From the UHGV virus genome UHGV-0261880: a stretch of DNA of 44,278 bases, one strand, 5' to 3'. Origin of the DNA: a virus. The first letter of the stretch is position 1; every line of letters begins with the position of its first letter. This document shows positions 3,287 through 11,307 of the stretch, piece by piece. The notes below the pieces were generated by a model that saw only the letters and a list, made by a program, of their open reading frames with translations, was not told the origin of the DNA and did not search any database. The position numbers were made by a program, and so were the translations under genes.

Positions 3287-3768
3287 ATTCGTGGAAACGT
3301 TGATTGCGCGGTTCCGTAGGCTTTAAGGAAACACCCCAGCCCGTCACCATAGCAACCATACAAATCGGGCAGATTGTTAACAAGGCACTGATTCTCGAGG
3401 TCCTGGAACGGCGATTTCTCAGCGGTTGCCGTGAAAGTAATTGTCCAGTTAATGCCATCTTCTGTGGACTCTGCGATGGTTGACGTGATAGTTACCTGAT
3501 AATCCTGTATGCCCATGCCGAAGTCGTGCGCCATCCAGAAACTTGACGCACCACCATCGACTTTCTCAAGGAACGACAGAAACGCCTGTCGTCCAAGCGC
3601 TGAGGTAATCAGGGTTACACTTATCGGGAACACGTCGTAATACGTGTCACGGCCCTGACGCACCCCGCCACCTGCTAAATCAACGCTCCAGACGTTGTTG
3701 CGTCTGGTCATTGAGTAGCCTTTCGATACCACCGGCTTAAGTCTACGTGGGAAATATAAGTCGCTCAT
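3268..3768 (-). CDS. Minor tail protein (M-like position)
   Basis: 166 aa ORF immediately downstream of tape measure (start abuts the tape-measure stop); call by synteny. Confidence 0.45.
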   Translation of the reverse strand: MSDLYFPRRLKPVVSKGYSMTRRNNVWSVDLAGGGVRQGRDTYYDVFPISVTLITSALGRQAFLSFLEKVDGGASSFWMAHDFGMGIQDYQVTITSTIAESTEDGINWTITFTATAEKSPFQDLENQCLVNNLPDLYGCYGDGLGCFLKAYGTAQSTFPRIWDPMQ

Positions 3769-6095
3769 TACTTGAACCCCGGCGCGTTTCTTGTGGCCTT
3801 GCGGGCCTTGCTAATCTTGCTGTTGCTGTTCTGCAAAGATGCGGCAACTTGCTCCTCGATGATAATACGCAGACGGCCTTCATCATCTTGCTCAGTGGAT
3901 ACGTTGCCGATTTGAGAACTCGTGTTGTTTACGATAGTAACATTAGATGGCCCGGAAGAAGACCCGTTTTGCCCCATAATTTCTTTCATCTGCTGTGCGG
4001 TGCGAACACGCGACGCACCAGCTGGCATGATAACTTCTGGTTTACCACGTTCTGCGATGGTGGAAGCCTGCCCAGCGGACAACTGACCGCCCTGCTCACG
4101 CGCCGAGCGGATTTTGGCGATATTAGCCAGCCCCGCGGCAACGGCAGTAGCCGCGGCAACCGGCGCCAGGAATGGGCCGACAACAGGGATGGCAGCCGTT
4201 GACTTATATGCCTCGATAGCTGATGTGTACGTGGCGATAGTTGCCTGCGCAATAGCAAACGCTTTATACGCGGTGGACGCCTCGCCAAATGCGGTTTTGG
4301 CATTAGCCGCCATGTCTCCGAAGGCATCTCCGGTGGCTTTGGCGCGCTTCATTGAATACTGCTCATCCAGGGCTAGGAGCGCCATCTGGTACTGTTCGGC
4401 GTTAATTATGCCGTCTGCCATGTATTTTGAGATGATATTCGCTTTTTGGGACTGTTGTATTTCCAGAAGCTCAAGCTCAGTAGCGTTCTGGCCCATAATC
4501 TGCGCCATGAAGTCGTCGCCTTTCTGCTGCTTTTCCTGGGCTTCTTTTCTTTTCTTATCCAGTTCTTCCTGTCGGGCCTGCTCGGCGGTGAGCATAATCT
4601 GCGTTTTGGCGTTTTCGTACTGCTGCTGGCTTATAGTTCCAGCGCGGTTGAACTCTTCAAGTTTCGCCAGTTTCTGCTCTTCTGCCGCTGTAATACGTGA
4701 AATTTCGTCTCCAGTTGTGCGGTCGACAGTAGCGAGGAAATCTTCCGCCGCTTTTTTCTGACGTTGTGCCGCCGTTTCTTCGCGTTTGGCTTGTGCCGCC
4801 AGGCGTTTCTCGTTCGATTTAGCCTCTCGGTCTGCCTTCGCTTTTTCGGTCGCGTCGATGCGAGCGATGTCCTGCTGCGCTTCCGTATCACGGGCGGCGT
4901 TATACGCGGCTATCTGTTCTTTGGTGACAGCTTCACGTTTAGCAAACGCCTGCTTATCCAGTTCAGCTTGCGCCCGGATGCGCTCACGGTCGCTTAAGAT
5001 GGCGATTTGCTGATTCTTGACGATAGCTTCGTTCTGTTCCTGGAACCTCTGCGTGGTTGAGTTAACGTTACGGCCGAGATTCTTTTGGGCCTCCGCCGCC
5101 GCGTTTGCCGACTTCTCCGCGTTCTCCAGTGCCGTGGCGTTCTTGTTGGCGTTGTCCGTCAGGCGGATAAGTTCCGGGTTCAACTGTTTTGTGTTACCGA
5201 GCCAGTCGGTAAACACATCGGCGATGCGACGGGCATTCTCGGCGGTTGGCTCTTTGTTAAACGCGCTCTGCGCCGCTATCATCTCCAGCGCCTGGTCACG
5301 GTTAACCCCGAACTTACTGCTAAGCTCTGCGATATTCTGCGCCAGCATGTTGACGCCTACGATGTTACCCTCGTAAGTGCCGCCGAGTTTTTCTAATGTG
5401 TCGCCTACATCCGCACCCTTAGAGACCAGTGCATCGTACTGGCTGATCGCCGACGCCGTGGAGGCTTTCCACGTTTCCCACGATTCAGCATCTTCACGAA
5501 CAGCTTTAGCGGTTTGCTGCGCGATAAGGTCCGCGTTAGCCTTAGCCAGGGCGAGTTGCGTTTCCGCGGCTTCGCGGCTAATTTGCGTAAGTTGAATAAG
5601 ACCGTCTGTCAGTTCGAGGGAGCCAGATGCCGTTTGCTGGAAAGTATCCTTTAACTGTTTCTGCGCGGCTTCGAGGTCTTTTGAACTACCTTCTGCTTCG
5701 GTTAGCGATTTGTACAGGACCCCGCCAACAGCCGACGCAAGAGCAATTACAGCCCCAAGCACCGCACCACCGGGGCCGAAAGCACCCGCAAGCTGCGAAC
5801 CTTGTTGCCCGATTGCTACGAATGCAGACGTACCGGATTGCAACTGGACTACCATGTCCTGCACCTGGAAGCCAACCTGCCCGGCAGCGTTACGGAACTT
5901 GGCAAAACCGTCGGACGCTGCTTTAGAGGTAGCGGAGTTTACTTTATTAACATCAGGCGTTAGTTTGTTTACTGCGGTATCCGCACGGTCTGCAGACGAT
6001 GCCATAGCGTCAAGCTGTTTGGCAGCTACGTCGGCACCTTCTGTTTTTACTCTGGCAATTAGGGAAGCCGTATCAGCCATCTTCTCTGCCCTCAA
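3768..6095 (-). CDS. Tail tape measure protein
   Basis: 775 aa, long Ala/Gln/Glu/Lys-rich coiled-coil-like middle, hydrophobic Gly/Ala-rich segments, position after G/T chaperones. Confidence 0.85.
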   Translation of the reverse strand: MRAEKMADTASLIARVKTEGADVAAKQLDAMASSADRADTAVNKLTPDVNKVNSATSKAASDGFAKFRNAAGQVGFQVQDMVVQLQSGTSAFVAIGQQGSQLAGAFGPGGAVLGAVIALASAVGGVLYKSLTEAEGSSKDLEAAQKQLKDTFQQTASGSLELTDGLIQLTQISREAAETQLALAKANADLIAQQTAKAVREDAESWETWKASTASAISQYDALVSKGADVGDTLEKLGGTYEGNIVGVNMLAQNIAELSSKFGVNRDQALEMIAAQSAFNKEPTAENARRIADVFTDWLGNTKQLNPELIRLTDNANKNATALENAEKSANAAAEAQKNLGRNVNSTTQRFQEQNEAIVKNQQIAILSDRERIRAQAELDKQAFAKREAVTKEQIAAYNAARDTEAQQDIARIDATEKAKADREAKSNEKRLAAQAKREETAAQRQKKAAEDFLATVDRTTGDEISRITAAEEQKLAKLEEFNRAGTISQQQYENAKTQIMLTAEQARQEELDKKRKEAQEKQQKGDDFMAQIMGQNATELELLEIQQSQKANIISKYMADGIINAEQYQMALLALDEQYSMKRAKATGDAFGDMAANAKTAFGEASTAYKAFAIAQATIATYTSAIEAYKSTAAIPVVGPFLAPVAAATAVAAGLANIAKIRSAREQGGQLSAGQASTIAERGKPEVIMPAGASRVRTAQQMKEIMGQNGSSSGPSNVTIVNNTSSQIGNVSTEQDDEGRLRIIIEEQVAASLQNSNSKISKARKATRNAPGFK

Positions 6096-6345
6096 ATATT
6101 CCGTCTAAGCCCATGATAACCTCGGCTTCGAACAAACTTATGCCGTAACCGGCGACATCACGAAACGCTACCAAATCTTGCCATTTGAGCGCATCGCGCG
6201 GGATTATAACGATAGTATCATCTGTTTCGCGCTGTAGGAATTTAATGGCACGGTATTTCTCGAACACGTCGATAAGAGAAACGGGGCATTCTGGCCCCGT
6301 CGTTTCTTTCATCTGCGGTTCTTTAATCACGCCCATTGCAATCAA
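6073..6345 (-). CDS. Tail assembly chaperone, frameshift-extension segment (T-like)
   Basis: Track ORF starts at a TTG; the same frame is open upstream across the stop of the 6435..6851 gene and is -1 relative to it. Confidence 0.45.
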   Translation of the reverse strand: MIAMGVIKEPQMKETTGPECPVSLIDVFEKYRAIKFLQRETDDTIVIIPRDALKWQDLVAFRDVAGYGISLFEAEVIMGLDGIFEGREDG

Positions 6346-6434
6346 AGCCGCCTGGTGGCCTGCCGCGATGTCGTCGAATTGCTTACGTTTCTGGCGGTCG
6401 ACAAAGCACCATTGCGCAAATTCATACAGCGCTT

Positions 6435-6851
6435 TTACTTTTCCGAGAGTTTCTCGCGGCTATCGGTGTGGTGTTTAACTACGGCTTCTGCCAGTCCGCT
6501 GTACTGGTCTAACAGGTTAGCCAGCGCCTCTTTGCTGAACGGTTCATCAAATGACCAACCGGTGACGATTTCCACAGCAAGCTGCTTGTTCAGGTCCATC
6601 ACCCGCCAGCCCTTCTCATCGTTATAGCGCGCCCAGTTATTCAGCGCCTCGCACTCTTTATCTAATGGCGCAAGTTCTTCCGTAAGGCGTCGAATTGCCG
6701 TTGTGTAGGCGCGGCCCGCACGAACGCCAGCATCACAGTCCGGGCCAATGACCTGCAACCATTCGCCGGAGTCTTTACCACTCGGCAGAAGGATAGGCAT
6801 TTTAGTACCGGCGGCGTGGCGGTCGGCAAAATAGAAATCAGAAAGTTTCAT
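6435..6851 (-). CDS. Tail assembly chaperone (G-like)
   Basis: 138 aa, immediately upstream of tape measure and followed by an overlapping -1 frame ORF, the conserved G/GT arrangement. Confidence 0.55.
   Translation of the reverse strand: MKLSDFYFADRHAAGTKMPILLPSGKDSGEWLQVIGPDCDAGVRAGRAYTTAIRRLTEELAPLDKECEALNNWARYNDEKGWRVMDLNKQLAVEIVTGWSFDEPFSKEALANLLDQYSGLAEAVVKHHTDSREKLSEK
6436..6446 (-). other. Candidate -1 programmed ribosomal frameshift site (CGGAAAAG) at the 3' end of the G-like chaperone gene
   Basis: Zero frame reads ...CTC TCG GAA AAG TAA; -1 frame reads ...GGA AAA GTA AAA... and stays open into the 6073..6345 ORF; heptamer resembles but is not identical to lambda G GGA AAG. Confidence 0.4.
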
Positions 6852-6958
6852 TCTTTAATCCTTTGGTTAAGAGGTTACTGGTTAAGGTTGACGCGCCAGA
6901 CGGGAACCACCCGCTTTTCGTGTGCGACACTAGGCGCAAACTTATTCTAGCACACTAC

Positions 6959-7015: not shown

Positions 7016-7342
7016 ATGCGTAAATCAGTATTAGCTCTAGGGTTTATGTCTTTTTCTACCTTTGGGTCCCCGTGCGAACAGGTATTTAGTGAATCTGTTC
7101 TTATTACCTCTGGTGTACTTGAGAAAGCCGACCCTACTATTGTAAAGGCGTTTAAGGACTCTACTGTTCGCGAGTGTGAGGCTGCCGTAGAGGTTGGTAA
7201 ATCGGGCCTGCCTCCGCAAGCCGTAACATACTCTGTAATACGTTCGGTAGAGAAAAACGGAGACGCGTTTTACAGCCTACTGACAGCCACCCGTCTGCAA
7301 ATGGTAATGACTGGATGGGCAATAGGCGCAGAAAGTAAATAG
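7016..7342 (+). CDS. Small secreted/periplasmic protein (signal peptide), opposite-strand insertion in tail module
   Basis: 108 aa; N-terminus MRKSVLALGFMSFSTFGSPCEQ is a signal peptide; own promoter; encoded antisense to the surrounding tail genes. Confidence 0.6.
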   Translation: MRKSVLALGFMSFSTFGSPCEQVFSESVLITSGVLEKADPTIVKAFKDSTVRECEAAVEVGKSGLPPQAVTYSVIRSVEKNGDAFYSLLTATRLQMVMTGWAIGAESK

Positions 7343-7407
7343 TCGCCTTTATTTAAGGGAATTCACTGTGGTTAAATAGGACAAATCTTAAACACGAGGA
7401 AGTAAGC

Positions 7408-8538
7408 ATGGCCAGGAAGAAAATAACTGACGAACAGTTGCAGGAAGAATTGAACGCCGGGATGAAGAACGTAGACATCGCCCGTAAATACGGCATCTCA
7501 GACCGCGTTATTCGTATCCGTAAAGCGAAGCTGGCTAAAAAAGGCGTAGGTCACGGGCGTGACGTTAGTTACCTTGTGCCAGATGGCTACAAGATTAAAG
7601 GAACGTCGTCACTTGTGGATGAGTTCGGCAACACTAAGTTGCAATGGGTTAAGACAGACACCGACGCCGAACGTCAGGTCGAGTTGATGAACGCCGTAAT
7701 CGAAGGCATGAAGTCAGAGATTACCCCCGTTGCGCCTGTTAAAGCCGCCCGCGCTAAACGAGACGATAAACTACTCAATCTTTACACGGTATCTGATTTC
7801 CATCTCGGCATGCTGGCATGGGCCGACGAGAGCGGCGACGACTGGGACATGAAAATCGCGGAAGACCTGTTTTCTCGCTGGTTCGACGCGGCGTTTCAGA
7901 AAGCACCGGATGCAGGAACAGGGGTTATTAATCTGCTTGGCGACCTCGCTCACTTCGATAGCCTGGACGCCGTTACACCGGCAAGCGGTCATGTTCTTGA
8001 CGCAGACACGCGCTATCAGAAACTTGTCCGCTACATGATTCGCATGGTCCGCCGTGTTGTCGATATGGCGCTGGTTAAGCATAAAAATGTTCGCTTGCTT
8101 ATCGTACAAGGGAACCACGACGAGAGTGGCATGATTTGGTTGGCTGAGATGTTCAGTACGCTGTATGACAATGAGCCGCGTGTGTTCGTCGATACGTCGC
8201 CGGATGTTTACAAGATGGTCCAGCACGGCAAAACGACGCTGTTCTTTACGCACGGGCATAAATGCCGGTTTGAGGTGGTCGAACCCATTATGATAGCTAA
8301 GTTCAGAAAAGCATTTGGCGAAAGCGAGTACAGTTACGCACATGTCGGGCATCTCCACCATCAAAAGATTGTAGAAAGTAGGAATATGGTAGTGGAACAA
8401 CATCGCACTCTCGCGGCGAAAGATGCATATGCTTCCCGCGGTGGGTGGATGTCTGGCCGTAGTGCAAATGTAATTACTTATAGCGCCGAATATGGCGAAG
8501 TCGCACGTTTAACTATTTCACCGGAGATGCTGGGATGA
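7408..8538 (+). CDS. Calcineurin-like metallophosphoesterase with N-terminal HTH-like domain (SbcD/Mre11-like or phosphatase)
   Basis: 376 aa; motifs SDFHLG, GDLAHFD, GNHDE, HGH, GHLHH match the metallophosphoesterase signature; N-terminal ~50 aa DIARKYGISDRVIRIRK looks like HTH. Confidence 0.75.
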   Translation: MARKKITDEQLQEELNAGMKNVDIARKYGISDRVIRIRKAKLAKKGVGHGRDVSYLVPDGYKIKGTSSLVDEFGNTKLQWVKTDTDAERQVELMNAVIEGMKSEITPVAPVKAARAKRDDKLLNLYTVSDFHLGMLAWADESGDDWDMKIAEDLFSRWFDAAFQKAPDAGTGVINLLGDLAHFDSLDAVTPASGHVLDADTRYQKLVRYMIRMVRRVVDMALVKHKNVRLLIVQGNHDESGMIWLAEMFSTLYDNEPRVFVDTSPDVYKMVQHGKTTLFFTHGHKCRFEVVEPIMIAKFRKAFGESEYSYAHVGHLHHQKIVESRNMVVEQHRTLAAKDAYASRGGWMSGRSANVITYSAEYGEVARLTISPEMLG

Positions 8539-9023
8539 AAGATATTGTGATTTTCGATTTAGACGGGACATTAGCTGATGGTACACACCGTTTACACCTG
8601 CTGCCGAAAGATAACTACAACGAAACATGGGCGTGGAAGCCTTTTAACATGGCCTGTAAAGATGATGCGCCGATATATGACAACATTCACTTGTGCAACA
8701 CGCTGTGGCATACCGGGATGACCGTAATTATCCTTACCGGGCGCAGTGATGATGCCGAGGGTGAGACTCGTAAATGGTTGCGAGAAAATAACGTTAAGTT
8801 TGACACGCTGATAATGCGCAGCAAACACGACAACAGAAAAGACATCGTAATTAAAGAAGAGGTGTTGCTCGCCATCGGGCTGGAGAGAATCTTGTGTGCG
8901 TTCGATGACTCGCCAGCGGTAATTAAGCATTTCCGCGCCCTCGGTCTGACCACACACGCGGTTACTGAATACGACTGTAACGGGAACTCTACACACTTAA
9001 AATCACACGGGAGCGATAAATAA
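8535..9023 (+). CDS. HAD-superfamily phosphatase, resembling the 3'-phosphatase domain of T4 polynucleotide kinase
   Basis: 162 aa; N-terminal nucleophile motif IFDLDGTLA; ILTGRSD, TRKWL and RKDIVIKEEV segments align by eye with my recollection of T4 Pnk C-terminal domain; start overlaps upstream stop. Confidence 0.7.
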   Translation: MKDIVIFDLDGTLADGTHRLHLLPKDNYNETWAWKPFNMACKDDAPIYDNIHLCNTLWHTGMTVIILTGRSDDAEGETRKWLRENNVKFDTLIMRSKHDNRKDIVIKEEVLLAIGLERILCAFDDSPAVIKHFRALGLTTHAVTEYDCNGNSTHLKSHGSDK

Positions 9024-9577
9024 TGGCTAAGGTAATTATTCTTAATGGCCCTGCGGGTTGCGGGAAAGACACGCTTGCTATGGCGCTGGTAGAAATGGGC
9101 TTTGCGAAAGGAACTACCAGTTTCAAGAATCCAATGTTCAATATTGCTTTGGCAGCGTTAGGCCCGGATGCTTACCACGAATTTCTCGACGGCTACGACG
9201 ACCGGGCGCGGAAAGAAAAGCCAGAGGGTTTTCTCAATGGGTTGTCCCGTCGTCAGTTCATGATTGCCATTTCTGAGCAATTCATTAAACCGGTATTCGG
9301 TGATGATTATTTCGGTAAGTATCTCGCTGAAAACTTGCCTGACGGCGACGAAGTTTTTGTAGTGTCCGACGGTGGATTCGCCAGTGAAGTTGCCCCTATC
9401 GTCGCCGCGGGGCATGACGTGCGAATCGTCCGCCTCCATCGTGACGGCTATACGTTCATCGGCGATAGCCGGGAGTATCTGTACGATGTTAGTGGTGTAA
9501 AAGATTACGACACCTACATCATACAGGGTGACGTTAAATCGAACGTTATAGACATTGCTTTAAAATTAGGTTTGTAA
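9023..9577 (+). CDS. P-loop nucleotide kinase, dNMP-kinase-like (T4 gp1 family)
   Basis: 184 aa; Walker A GPAGCGKDT at residues 9-17; overall pattern resembles T4 gene 1 dNMP kinase from memory; translationally coupled to the HAD gene. Confidence 0.65.
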   Translation: MAKVIILNGPAGCGKDTLAMALVEMGFAKGTTSFKNPMFNIALAALGPDAYHEFLDGYDDRARKEKPEGFLNGLSRRQFMIAISEQFIKPVFGDDYFGKYLAENLPDGDEVFVVSDGGFASEVAPIVAAGHDVRIVRLHRDGYTFIGDSREYLYDVSGVKDYDTYIIQGDVKSNVIDIALKLGL

Positions 9578-9601
9578 GAAAAAGGCCCCGAAAGGGGCCT
9601 T
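9576..9601. terminator. Stem-loop AAGGCCCC-GAAA-GGGGCCTT with flanking A/T run (efficient mainly for minus-strand readthrough)
   Basis: 8-bp GC-rich stem; on the minus strand it is followed by TTTTTC; lies just after the kinase stop. Confidence 0.5.
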
Positions 9602-9614
9602 ATCACAGTAGGAG

Positions 9615-10109
9615 ATGATTATGGATTGGAATGAATTTTTCATATACGATTTAATTTCAGGAAGGATATTTAACAGAGTAACCCGGTCCGGGAGGGCTAA
9701 GGCTGGAGAGGAAGCAGGTACTGTCCAGCGAGACGGATATAGAAGGATATTTTTCCGTGGTAAATGGCATGCGGCGCACCGTATAGCTTGGGACTTAAAC
9801 AATCCTAACGATAAGCTAACCTCGTCAGATCAAATAGACCATCTAGACCATGACCGAATAAACAATAGACCGCTTAACTTAGCTAAAAAGTCCAATGCGG
9901 AAAACCATAAAAATATGTCAAAACAGCGTAATAATAAATCAGGAGTAACCGGAGTTTACTGGAATGCGAAAGAAAGGTTGTGGTACGCACAGATATTCAA
10001 CAATAACGTAAAAACACATATCGGGTGCTTTAAGACGCTACTAGATGCAGTTGCCGCGAGGAGAGTTGCTGAAAGAGATTTGGGGTTCCACGAGAACCAC
10101 GGTAAATAG
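9615..10109 (+). CDS. HNH homing endonuclease with C-terminal AP2-type DNA-binding domain
   Basis: 164 aa; HNH core HAAHRIAW...DHLDHDRINNR; C-terminal SGVTGVYWNAKERLWYAQI...GCFKTLLDAVAARRVAE is AP2-like; AT-rich relative to neighbours. Confidence 0.8.
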   Translation: MIMDWNEFFIYDLISGRIFNRVTRSGRAKAGEEAGTVQRDGYRRIFFRGKWHAAHRIAWDLNNPNDKLTSSDQIDHLDHDRINNRPLNLAKKSNAENHKNMSKQRNNKSGVTGVYWNAKERLWYAQIFNNNVKTHIGCFKTLLDAVAARRVAERDLGFHENHGK

Positions 10110-10110
10110 T

Positions 10111-10137
10111 AAGGCCCCTTTCGGGGCCTTTTCCTTA
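10111..10137 (+). terminator. Rho-independent terminator AAGGCCCC-TTTC-GGGGCCTT + TTTCCTT
   Basis: Exact reverse complement of the 9582 hairpin, placed immediately after the HNH stop; U-tract on plus strand. Confidence 0.55.
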
Positions 10138-11307
10138 CGCGTAGCTAATACGCTGTATTACAATAGAAGATTGATATTGATTGCCTGTGGACTGTCCTTC
10201 TATGCTCTGAGTGATTGACTCAGGTCCGCCAATCTCTGGCGTAACCGCCGTAAGCTCTGCGCGTTTCAAACTGAAAGACATAGCCCCGTTTACCCCCGCC
10301 AGAATAGAGTTAATCTCTACCTGCTGCTCGTTGATAAACTTCTGAATCATCGCCATGTCGTATAGCTTGCCGGAGATGGAGAAGGTGTTTGCCGCGCGGC
10401 TACGTTCCACAAACGCTACGTTAGTGTTGCCGAGTTCGAACTGCGCGGATGCGCTGTTATCGTTGGTGATGGTCAGACTATCACAACGCAACGGCGTAGA
10501 ACCGTCGAACACAGACACATCTACAGACGAGAACGGCTCGTCACCAAACGTGACAGAGGAGAAATCAGAACCAGACGGCGGCTCGGTGAGAATCTCCTGA
10601 CTGCGACCGATGAACGGGAAGCTACCTGTAACCATCGCGTTAACCGCCTGCTCAACGGTAAAACCTGAAACTTCCACGCCTTTAGTCAACGTGTACGCGT
10701 CAGTCCCGCCGCACTGGCCTTTGTACCAGGTAAGAATAGAGAACGTCTTACACTGACTACCAGTCTCCAGCTTATCCCCGGTCTTAGCAGCGGTAGTAAC
10801 AGTCTCTGCGGTCAGAGTGTGCTGGATACCCGTACCAGTGACAACAGTCGCACTTATTTCGGTTACGATAAACGGTTTGGCGTTATCGCCCGTTAAGTCG
10901 GTGAACGCAATCAGGTCGCCTACTTCAACGCCGTCGGTAATAAAGCTACCGGTGGAGCGTGTAAAGGTCTTGCCAGCCGGTGCGACGGTAATCGACAGCC
11001 CTGACAGCGAGACACCTGATTGCCACGTAGAGCCTAAAGCACCTGCCAGCCAGTCATCCTGGCTACGCGAGCTAAGTTCGATAGCGTATTCACCGCTAAC
11101 CTGTTTGTTACCGGTGCGGATGGACGTAGTTTCACGGCTGCCGTCCAGTTCATTGGAGGTCAGCGTGTCTCGGGTAATAGCGGGAACACCGCCAGTGTTA
11201 CGCAACGGCGACCAGACAGGGTTGTCTGGGGTCACGCCCGGGGTAACTTCCGCCACATAGAATTGCGCGGTATTCGCGCCCTTAAAAGGAGTTGTAGCCA
11301 TACTCAC
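10135..11307 (-). CDS. Major tail (tube) protein
   Basis: 390 aa Thr/Ser/Gly-rich beta-type protein, last gene of the head-tail operon before the chaperone pair; call by synteny. Confidence 0.55.
   Translation of the reverse strand: MSMATTPFKGANTAQFYVAEVTPGVTPDNPVWSPLRNTGGVPAITRDTLTSNELDGSRETTSIRTGNKQVSGEYAIELSSRSQDDWLAGALGSTWQSGVSLSGLSITVAPAGKTFTRSTGSFITDGVEVGDLIAFTDLTGDNAKPFIVTEISATVVTGTGIQHTLTAETVTTAAKTGDKLETGSQCKTFSILTWYKGQCGGTDAYTLTKGVEVSGFTVEQAVNAMVTGSFPFIGRSQEILTEPPSGSDFSSVTFGDEPFSSVDVSVFDGSTPLRCDSLTITNDNSASAQFELGNTNVAFVERSRAANTFSISGKLYDMAMIQKFINEQQVEINSILAGVNGAMSFSLKRAELTAVTPEIGGPESITQSIEGQSTGNQYQSSIVIQRISYA

What the first reader, a model, noticed from the sequence alone, without database searches (positions are those of the whole stretch)
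6073..6851. Probable -1 programmed frameshift joining the two tail chaperone ORFs at a non-canonical slippery site
The G-like ORF ends ...CTC TCG GAA AAG TAA. The -1 frame (GGA AAA GTA...) is open from there through the 6073..6345 ORF, whose only in-frame start is a TTG. The site CGGAAAAG resembles but does not equal the lambda G GGA AAG heptamer, so the mechanism or efficiency may differ from the textbook case.
Basis: partly seen in the sequence, partly recalled or inferred. Interest (0 to 1): 0.4.

Follow-up and report, generated by a model that had tools for sequence, protein, structure and literature searches.

The report
Tail chaperone frameshift at near-canonical site
This is the well-known ribosomal frameshift that lets tailed phages make a short and a long tail-assembly chaperone from one gene pair. 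It is already annotated in near-identical phages, and here it uses a one-letter variant of the textbook slippery sequence placed right against the stop codon.

Summary
The window is a Kagunavirus (Guernseyvirinae) siphophage genome, 95-97% identical to K1H, NTEC3 and fFiEco02. On the minus strand, a 138-aa G-like chaperone (6851..6435) ends CTC TCG GAA AAG TAA. The -1 frame is open from 22 nt before that stop to 6073, where it overlaps the tape measure gene start.

A -1 frameshift giving a 259-aa GT fusion is strongly supported by comparison. Across 78 distinct relatives in 19 clusters:
- A_AAG followed by TAA or TAG is invariant.
- Synonymous variation vanishes over codons 136-142.
- The T frame shows coding constraint right up to the slip site, with no conserved start codon.
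- In two relatives the -1 frame opens only 7 nt before the stop.
- Rare relatives carry canonical A_AAA_AAG or G_GGA_AAG at the same spot.

The joined CDS is already annotated in RefSeq K1H and in other records, so this is known. The site belongs to the known A_AAG / NNA_AAG class.

Three things remain unresolved:
- what stimulates the shift, since no conserved downstream structure was found;
- why GCG-YTG after the stop is invariant;
- why the stop is never TGA.

Side observations: a covarying terminator-like hairpin inside T, and an int-alpA-like RNA in the G leader.

The parts
6435..6851 (-). G-like tail assembly chaperone ORF. It is 138 aa and 15.5 kDa and is the zero-frame product. The stop TAA is at 6437..6435.
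   Evidence: Pfam Phage_TAC_4 E=7.7e-9. PHROG 15027 positions 1-138. Mass.
6438..6444 (-). Shift site G_GAA_AAG. The invariant core A_AAG is 6441..6438. After the -1 slip the codons read GGA AAA.
   Evidence: AAG was found in 78/78 sequences, the preceding codon is always NNA, and GAA was found in 55/55 Glu codons.
6435..6437 (-). G stop codon TAA, immediately 3' of the shift codon. In relatives it is TAA or TAG and never TGA. It is a possible 'shifty stop' contributor.
   Evidence: 19/19 clusters use TAA or TAG. Background in the window is TGA 33, TAA 33, TAG 8 of 74 ORFs.
6427..6432 (-). Invariant GCGCTG (GCG-YTG in the family), starting 6 nt 3' of the AAG codon (5 nt between). It shows constraint beyond protein coding, and its role is unknown.
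   Evidence: Ala is GCG in 78/78 and Leu is only CTG or TTG; columns 18-20, 22 and 23 are invariant.
6073..6438 (-). T segment in the -1 frame: 121 codons plus stop TGA 6075..6073. It is translated only by shifted ribosomes. The GT fusion is 259 aa and 29.3 kDa.
   Evidence: Pfam Phage_TAC_18 E=8.3e-18 on residues 32-116. PHROG 15027 positions 139-259.
6460..6462 (-). TAG in the -1 frame that closes that frame upstream. It limits the permitted shift window to the last 7 codons of G.
   Evidence: -1 frame open from -22.
3768..6080 (-). Tape measure protein gene. Its ATG 6080..6078 overlaps the T stop as ATGGCTGA.
   Evidence: PHROG 1538 E=8e-188. K1H annotation.
6270..6301 (-). Side feature inside T: a GC-rich hairpin GACGGGGC-CAGAAT-GCCCCGTT (-14.1 kcal/mol) followed by TCTCTTATCG. 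It looks like an intrinsic terminator.
6876..6940 (-). Side feature: an int-alpA-like structured RNA motif in the leader of the G gene.
   Evidence: The window scores 30.3 bits, below the gathering score of 35.8. Relatives score 30.3-36.6 bits at the same position.

Best explanation
G and T are the two halves of the lambda-type tail assembly chaperone pair. Most ribosomes translate G (6851..6438) and terminate at TAA, giving the 15.5-kDa chaperone. A small fraction slip back one base on G_GAA_AAG: tRNA-Lys(UUU) re-pairs from AAG to AAA, and in this phage tRNA-Glu can re-pair from GAA to GGA with a central G.U. Those ribosomes read GTA AAA GCG... to TGA at 6073, giving a 29.3-kDa GT fusion.

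By analogy with lambda, the G part of the fusion binds the tape measure protein and the T part recruits the tail tube protein. The essential sequence element is the tetramer A_AAG, which is shift-prone in hosts with a single tRNA-Lys. The adjacent, never-TGA stop codon and the invariant GCG-YTG just downstream are the likeliest modulators of efficiency.

Shown here: the sequence anatomy, the conservation, the coding constraint and the homology. Inferred: that slippage occurs, its rate, whether one or two tRNAs slip, and the roles of the stop codon and the 3' hexamer.
For: (1) Anatomy: the frames and coordinates hold, and the tape measure gene lies immediately downstream with an ATGGCTGA overlap.

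(2) Family assignment: Pfam Phage_TAC_4 on G and Phage_TAC_18 on T. PHROG 15027 is a 259-position profile of the joined product, matched by G at positions 1-138 and by T at 139-259.

(3) Conservation in 78 distinct sequences in 19 clusters at 80% aa identity: AAG 78/78, never AAA. The preceding codon is always NNA. Glu is always GAA. There is no synonymous variation over codons 136-142, while neighbouring Leu, Arg and Ala columns use 4-6 codons.

(4) When the penultimate codon is GAA, the base before it is always G (61/61 loci). This allows near-cognate P-site re-pairing.

(5) Rare relatives have canonical A_AAA_AAG (L030, L031) or G_GGA_AAG (L069) at the identical position.

(6) In L041 and L045 the -1 frame opens only 7 nt before the stop, so the shift can only occur on GCA_AAG.

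(7) Between the slip site and the first common ATG, entropy by codon phase in the T frame is 0.72 / 0.59 / 1.39. There are no stops, and there is no conserved start codon; the first in-frame start varies and 5 of 64 sequences have none.

(8) Relatives at 24-30% identity (Vibrio 1.117.O, Pseudomonas Almagne, Variovorax VBv52) carry canonical T_TTT_TTC a few codons upstream of the homologous point. The Almagne and Variovorax fusions align with this one across the junction.

(9) Literature: A_AAG is the most shift-prone tetramer in E. coli, giving 5.6% with a pseudoknot (PMC4066793). NNA_AAG sites are used by IS1222 and B. subtilis cdd, and the shiftiness is tied to the single tRNA-Lys(UUU) of E. 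coli (PMC5009743).

(10) The joined CDS is already annotated in K1H RefSeq, fFiEco02, fFiEco03 and Shelanagig.
Against: No experimental data for this site were found.

In E. coli reporters, tetramers without a stimulator were barely above background: 0.147% against 0.112% (PMC4066793). No conserved stimulator was detected here:
- RNAalifold finds only a 3-bp stem (-0.28 kcal/mol).
- Downstream folding z-scores are mostly -0.5 to +0.4.
- No conserved SD-like sequence lies upstream.

The Atkins review notes that a slow-to-decode A site matters more for +1 than for -1 shifting.

Some annotators rejected a frameshift in this group. The Shashou paper says there is 'no canonical slippery sequence', and several records call T as a separate gene.

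The G gene is not adjacent to the tail tube gene, as it is in the classical layout.
Confidence: 0.82

Rival explanations
1. T is made as a separate protein. Ribosomes would initiate independently, or re-initiate after terminating at the G stop. The start could be the conserved YTG 6 nt downstream (CTG 6429..6427 here) or the TTG/ATG at 6345/6336. Under this reading the purine-rich GGAAAAG would serve as a weak Shine-Dalgarno sequence rather than a slip site.
For: Several GenBank records annotate T this way (Bas71, Jersey, SETP13, Tsm2, Shashou). Shashou even marks GGAA inside the motif as the RBS. The Leu codon after the stop is restricted to CTG or TTG in all sequences, and a stop adjacent to a restart codon is typical of coupling. 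An in-frame ATG at alignment column 114 is present in 56 of 64 sequences.
Against: 61 of 78 sequences have CTG, a very poor initiator, although TTG would be synonymous. Six of the 19 clusters (the GCA_AAG variants such as AAC GCA AAG) have no SD-like purine run. An SD role would not need AAG rather than AAA, nor an A at the third position of the preceding codon. The codons upstream of the column-114 ATG are under coding constraint and free of stops. Homologues with canonical heptamers are clearly fusions. In the lambda model, T must be tethered to G to function (PMC5009743).
Confidence: 0.1
2. The fusion arises from transcriptional slippage. RNA polymerase would add one extra A in the A-run, so the mRNA itself is shifted into the T frame.
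For: An extra A in GGAAAAG would give the same protein as a -1 ribosomal shift (from the sequence). One clade has a longer run, GCAAAAAAG.
Against: The run is only four A's here, and three A's in the GCA_AAG and GTA_AAG variants. From general knowledge, productive slippage in bacteria needs much longer homopolymers. The strict requirement for G after the A's (AAG, never AAA) fits tRNA-Lys re-pairing rules and not polymerase slippage, which would favour a longer A run.
Confidence: 0.03
3. The overlap is an incidental leftover. Under this reading T would be dispensable or unexpressed, and the A_AAG + stop arrangement would be conserved only by descent.
For: All sequences belong to one subfamily, so the counts are not independent. 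A stop codon at the end of G would be kept anyway, because the next zero-frame stop is 30 codons away (from the sequence).
Against: Neighbouring synonymous sites are saturated, yet the motif shows none. The T frame carries a clear coding signature and a Pfam chaperone domain. The penultimate codon changes identity (GAA, GCA, GTA, AAA, GGA) but always keeps the third-position A.
Confidence: 0.02

Closest known systems
Phage lambda G/GT programmed -1 frameshift (Levin, Hendrix & Casjens 1993; Xu, Hendrix & Duda 2004, 2013, 2014, as summarised in PMC5009743)
   Same: Two overlapping chaperone ORFs lie directly upstream of the tape measure gene, and the second is in the -1 frame and lacks a conserved start. 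The slip ends on Lys AAG near the end of G. The result is a short abundant product and a rare fusion.
   Different: The heptamer is G_GAA_AAG rather than G_GGA_AAG, so P-site re-pairing is only near-cognate. The shift codon is the last sense codon of G and is directly followed by the stop. G and T share only family-level (Pfam Phage_TAC) similarity with other chaperones. The G gene is separated from the tail tube gene by about 3.3 kb of genes on the opposite strand.
Annotated GT frameshift of Kagunavirus and Jerseyvirus phages (K1H NC_027994 gp21/gp22, fFiEco02, fFiEco03, Shelanagig; PHROG 15027)
   Same: This is the same gene pair with the same motif, CTC TCG GAA AAG TAA, at 95-97% nucleotide identity. 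The joined CDS is already deposited.
   Different: Nothing of substance differs. Those annotations are predictions too, and other records of the same group annotate two separate genes.
NNA_AAG hexanucleotide / A_AAG tetranucleotide -1 sites (IS1222 G_CGA_AAG, B. subtilis cdd A_CGA_AAG; reviewed in PMC5009743; systematic test in PMC4066793)
   Same: The slip depends on tRNA-Lys moving from AAG to AAA. The preceding codon only needs a third-position A. Family variants with GCA_AAG and GTA_AAG have no P-site re-pairing at all.
   Different: Those cases have identified stimulators (an upstream SD-like sequence or downstream structure). None is evident here. The zero-frame stop is immediately adjacent here, and this is conserved across the family.
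'Shifty stop' frameshifting (Weiss et al. 1987; prfB CUU_UGA +1; cited in PMC5009743)
   Same: A stop codon sits directly 3' of the shift-prone codon, so a slow-to-decode A site could give peptidyl-tRNA time to slip.
   Different: The classical natural examples are +1 shifts, and this would be a -1 case. The effect of the stop here is untested.

Membership tests
Tail assembly chaperone G/GT -1 frameshift (lambda type) | Two ORFs immediately upstream of the tape measure gene, with the second overlapping the first in the -1 frame | tested here: met
   The T stop overlaps the tape measure ATG.
Tail assembly chaperone G/GT -1 frameshift (lambda type) | The pair lies between the major tail (tube) gene and the tape measure gene | tested here: not met
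   The tail gene at 10135..11307 (-) is separated from G by plus-strand genes at 7016..10109. The layout is the same in K1H and Shashou. This is a synteny variant of the whole subfamily and does not bear on the mechanism.
Tail assembly chaperone G/GT -1 frameshift (lambda type) | Canonical X_XXY_YYZ slippery heptamer in the overlap | tested here: not met
   G_GAA_AAG differs at one position from G_GGA_AAG. Canonical heptamers occur at the same spot in L030, L031 and L069.
Tail assembly chaperone G/GT -1 frameshift (lambda type) | Downstream ORF lacks its own conserved start, and coding constraint reaches back to the overlap | tested here: met
   phase entropies 0.72 / 0.59 / 1.39, 0 stops, variable first start codon.
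Tail assembly chaperone G/GT -1 frameshift (lambda type) | Sequence homology to tail assembly chaperone families | tested here: met
   PF08748 and PF23812 are above their cut-offs. PHROG 15027 and 313 match.
Tail assembly chaperone G/GT -1 frameshift (lambda type) | Both G and GT proteins are produced, at a fixed low ratio of GT | not testable with these tools
   Needs a western blot, mass spectrometry or a reporter assay.
A_AAG / NNA_AAG -1 shift sites of E. coli-type bacteria | Zero-frame A_AAG, with the host decoding AAA and AAG through a single tRNA-Lys(UUU) | tested here: met
   The motif is in register. The hosts of the family are Escherichia, Salmonella and Serratia. The tRNA point comes from PMC5009743. 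The phage encodes no tRNA.
A_AAG / NNA_AAG -1 shift sites of E. coli-type bacteria | A stimulatory element: a downstream hairpin or pseudoknot at 5-9 nt, or an upstream SD-like sequence | tested here: inconclusive
   No conserved structure was found. A candidate long-range helix 7-9 nt downstream is 81.5% paired, but that equals the shuffle expectation. The invariant GCG-YTG is unexplained.
Shifty-stop frameshifting | Stop codon immediately 3' of the shift codon, with the stop's identity or context affecting efficiency | tested here: inconclusive
   The adjacency is invariant. The stop is TAA or TAG in 19/19 clusters and never TGA, and the +4 base is only A or C. The window background is 45% TGA. 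The functional effect is not testable here, and the +4 base is also a T-frame second codon position.
Rfam RF02996 int-alpA RNA (side observation) | Score at or above the family gathering threshold (35.8 bits) | tested here: not met
   The window scores 30.3 bits, E=1e-4. One relative (L072) reaches 36.6 bits at the same position upstream of G, and six others score 30.3-33.5 bits.

The most novel reading that the evidence does not exclude
The site may be a natural -1 'shifty stop'. Slippage of tRNA-Lys on A_AAG would be driven by slow termination at a UAA or UAG stop (never UGA) in a weak context, plus a conserved non-structural 3' hexamer GCG-YUG.

The stretch of mRNA that only shifted ribosomes translate also carries a conserved terminator-like hairpin (6301..6280) that covaries at positions that change amino acids. 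Frameshifting and transcription attenuation could therefore act together to set the G : GT : tape-measure ratio. A shifted ribosome trailing the polymerase might even act as the anti-terminator.
Probability: 0.12. Interest if true: 0.6.

Novelty: already known. Interest (0 to 1): 0.25.

Why it matters
For annotation, the result settles an inconsistency. Records of the same phage group either join G and T or call two genes, and one paper states that no slippery sequence exists. The family-wide invariance of A_AAG + stop shows that the join is the better call, and that heptamer-only rules miss it.

For recoding biology, the interest is modest. This would be a large natural family (hundreds of Escherichia, Salmonella and Serratia phages) relying on a minimal tetramer next to a stop codon with no recognisable stimulator. 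Reporter data say such tetramers alone are barely active. That makes the family a convenient system for asking what else tunes low-level -1 shifting.

Tried and rejected
- **Conserved downstream stimulatory structure.** RNAalifold on 64-69 distinct sequences gives only a 3-bp stem. Single-sequence folds of 19 representatives have unremarkable z-scores. The local hairpin in the window's own clade starts only 2 nt after AAG and is not conserved.
- **Long-range helix (A2 columns 20-32 with 69-80).** Its register is specific against slid controls, but pairing equals the shuffle expectation and rests on two palindromic GAATT-type codon pairs. I left it as inconclusive.
- **Upstream SD-like stimulator.** One is present in the Jersey clade (AAGGAG) but it is not conserved.
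- **Sequence search of solved structures with the GT fusion.** Nothing meaningful came back. I did not run structure prediction or the large protein database searches, because they would not decide the question.
- **GE_vB_HIL, which looked like an in-frame fusion (one tblastn piece).** It is an UNVERIFIED record with frame errors, so I discarded it.
- **Papers I could not obtain.** Licznar et al. 2003 (NNA_AAG data) and Anany et al. 2015 (Jerseyvirinae description) were not held.
- **Kagunavirus transcriptome paper.** It has no per-gene table usable for testing the terminator idea.
Full report
**What the window is.** The 1.1 kb around the finding matches 117 phage records at 80-97% identity. 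Nearly all are Escherichia phages of the genus Kagunavirus in the subfamily Guernseyvirinae, such as K1H, NTEC3 and fFiEco02. The genes in question are on the minus strand.

**Checking the observation.** The ORF 6851..6435 encodes 138 aa and ends CTC TCG GAA AAG TAA. The -1 frame has a TAG at 6462..6460. From 6459 it reads ...CTC GGA AAA GTA AAA GCG CTG... without a stop to TGA 6075..6073. That stop overlaps the ATG (6080) of a 770-aa tape measure protein, PHROG 1538, E=8e-188.

A shift on AAG gives a fusion of 138 + 121 = 259 aa and 29.3 kDa, against 15.5 kDa for G alone. One statement was wrong: TTG 6345 is only the first canonical start in that frame, and ATG 6336 follows three codons later.

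**What the two ORFs are.** G matches Pfam Phage_TAC_4, and the T segment matches Phage_TAC_18. Both halves match one 259-position PHROG, 15027, 'tail assembly chaperone': G at positions 1-138 and T at 139-259. So joined products of this kind are already in the databases.

A two-piece joined CDS is annotated in RefSeq K1H, fFiEco02, fFiEco03 and Shelanagig. Other records call two separate genes: Bas71, Jersey, SETP13, Tsm2 and Shashou. [quoted passage not shown] Yet Shashou carries CAG GAA AAG TAG at the end of its G gene.

**Comparative test of the shift site.** I collected 80 loci from IMG/VR plus annotated phages. This gave 78 distinct G+T sequences in 19 clusters at 80% amino-acid identity, with G identity to the window as low as ~47%. 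The findings were:
- Every G ends N_NNA_AAG followed at once by TAA or TAG.
- Lys is AAG in 78/78. The preceding codon is GAA, GCA, GTA, AAA or GGA, always with A at the third position. Glu is GAA in 55/55.
- Codons 136-142 show no synonymous variation, while nearby conserved Leu, Arg and Ala columns use 4-6 codons.
- Whenever the penultimate codon is GAA, the base before it is G (61/61 loci). This gives G_GAA_AAG, in which tRNA-Glu could re-pair to GGA with a central G.U.
- Two loci have the canonical A_AAA_AAG and one has G_GGA_AAG at the same place.
- In L041 and L045 the -1 frame opens only 7 nt before the stop, so a productive shift is only possible on GCA_AAG.

**Is the T frame translated from the slip site?** I looked at the 99 nt between the slip site and the first widely shared ATG (alignment A2, 64 distinct sequences). 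Mean column entropy by codon phase in the T frame is 0.72 / 0.59 / 1.39. The T frame has no stop, against 144 and 164 in the other two frames. The first in-frame ATG, GTG or TTG falls at different columns in different sequences, and in five sequences there is none. These codons are therefore under protein-coding selection without a conserved way to initiate.

**Distant relatives.** Three phages at 24-30% identity (Vibrio 1.117.O, Pseudomonas Almagne, Variovorax VBv52) have the same G / -1 T / tape measure layout. Each has a canonical T_TTT_TTC, 6-18 codons before its G stop. Fusions built on those heptamers for Almagne and Variovorax align with this window's fusion over ~250 residues, straight across the junction. 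Their slip points lie 4-5 residues upstream of the one here. The frameshift architecture is therefore ancestral. What changed in Guernseyvirinae is the site type and its position flush against the stop.

**How it probably works.** A_AAG is the most shift-prone tetramer in E. coli because the single tRNA-Lys(UUU) pairs better with AAA (PMC5009743; PMC4066793). NNA_AAG sites are used by IS1222 and occur in B. subtilis cdd. The enteric hosts of this family fit that rule, and the phage encodes no tRNA.

In reporters, however, tetramers without a stimulator were at background (0.147% against 0.112%), and A_AAG reached 5.6% only with a pseudoknot. I found no conserved stimulator:
- RNAalifold gives a 3-bp stem.
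- Folding z-scores are unremarkable.
- There is no shared upstream SD-like sequence.
- A candidate long-range helix starts 7-9 nt after AAG. It is 81.5% paired against 32-49% in slid registers, but shuffles give 81.1%, so column composition explains it.

Two further conserved features may matter:
- **The stop codon.** It is TAA or TAG in 19/19 clusters and never TGA, although TGA ends 33 of 74 ORFs in this window. The next base is only A or C.
- **The hexamer GCG-YTG.** It starts 6 nt after AAG (5 nt between) and is invariant. Ala is always GCG and Leu is only CTG or TTG, although the homologous Leu in distant relatives is CTC or TTA.

These features are compatible with a slow-termination ('shifty stop') contribution and a 3' context effect. 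Neither can be tested here, and the review notes that slow A sites matter more for +1 than for -1 shifts.

**Rivals.**
- **Independent initiation or re-initiation of T.** This is the annotators' alternative. It would explain the YTG. But 61 of 78 sequences have CTG, six clusters lack any purine-rich SD-like run, and it explains neither AAG-not-AAA nor the third-position A.
- **Transcriptional slippage.** This is unlikely on three or four A's.
- **Pure inheritance.** This cannot explain a motif with no synonymous change among saturated neighbours.

**Novelty and verdict.** It is, however, the classical tail chaperone frameshift, it is already annotated for phages with the identical motif, and the site type belongs to a described class. 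I rate it already known, with interest 0.25. What may be new is the family-wide picture: a minimal tetramer, an obligatory adjacent non-TGA stop, and an invariant 3' hexamer with no visible structure.

**Seen in passing.**
- **Terminator-like hairpin inside T.** About 135 nt past the slip site lies GACGGGGC-CAGAAT-GCCCCGTT plus a T-rich tail (6301..6270), at -14.1 kcal/mol. That is as strong as the intergenic terminator-like hairpins in this genome, including the one after the capsid gene. In relatives, the codons flanking the G-P-E-C-P motif change amino acid in a correlated way that keeps the stem: ACG/CGT, GAG/CTC, AAG/CTT, GGT/GCC. G.U pairs occur only in the mRNA sense, and most versions are followed by TTTTT. 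A comparable hairpin is present in about 13 of 19 clusters, including a different-sequence hairpin in the L021 Jersey-like clade, and it is weak in the SETP13-like clade.
- **int-alpA-like RNA in the G leader.** The leader (6940..6876) matches Rfam int-alpA RNA at 30.3 bits, below the 35.8 threshold. Seven relatives match upstream of G, six of them at the same offset (L027 about 140 nt upstream), and one reaches 36.6 bits.
- **Position of G.** G starts its own transcription unit and is separated from the tail tube gene by a block of genes on the opposite strand.

Noticed in passing
window 6270..6301, minus strand (inside the T ORF): A terminator-like hairpin, GACGGGGC-CAGAAT-GCCCCGTT, is followed by TCTCTTATCG. 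Its energy is -14.1 kcal/mol, equal to the intergenic terminator-like hairpins of this genome.

In relatives, the stem extension covaries through amino-acid-changing substitutions (ACG/CGT, GAG/CTC, AAG/CTT, GGT/GCC). It contains G.U pairs in the mRNA sense and is usually followed by TTTTT. It is present in about 13 of 19 clusters and weak in the SETP13-like clade. On alignment A3, 0 of 500 shuffles reach the observed pairing or covariation.

It could be an attenuator between G and the tape measure gene, in RNA that only frameshifted ribosomes translate.
   Followed up: partly
window 6876..6940, minus strand (leader of the G gene): This stretch matches Rfam RF02996 int-alpA RNA at 30.3 bits (E=1e-4), below the gathering score of 35.8. 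Seven divergent relatives also match upstream of G at 30.3-36.6 bits, six at the same position and L027 about 140 nt upstream, and L072 is above threshold. This is a structured leader of unknown function in a virulent phage's tail operon.
   Followed up: partly
window 6427..6432, minus strand: GCGCTG (GCG-YTG in the family), starting 6 nt after the shift codon, is invariant at synonymous positions in all 78 distinct relatives. The T protein sequence does not explain this.
   Followed up: partly
window 6435..6437 and the homologous stops in L004-L089: The G stop is TAG (about two-thirds) or TAA and never TGA. The next base is only A or C. In the window's own 74 gene-like ORFs the stops are TGA 33, TAA 33 and TAG 8.
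   Followed up: partly
window 7016..10109 (+) between 6851 and 10135: About 3.3 kb of plus-strand genes separates the tail tube-type gene (10135..11307, minus) from the G/T/tape measure genes. These genes include a PHROG 14165 protein, a DNA repair exonuclease and an HNH endonuclease. The chaperone pair therefore heads its own transcription unit. K1H and Shashou have the same layout.
   Followed up: partly
L007 (Salmonella phage GE_vB_HIL, MG969408.1): This UNVERIFIED record has frame breaks in the chaperone gene: a 21-codon ORF at the G start. These are probably sequencing errors. It briefly looked like an in-frame GT fusion in the tblastn search.
   Followed up: yes
L005/L024 (phage Jersey), about 10 nt upstream of the slip site: Jersey-clade sequences have AAGGAG about 10 nt upstream of A_AAG, the spacing of the dnaX SD-like stimulator. 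It is not conserved in other clades.
   Followed up: no
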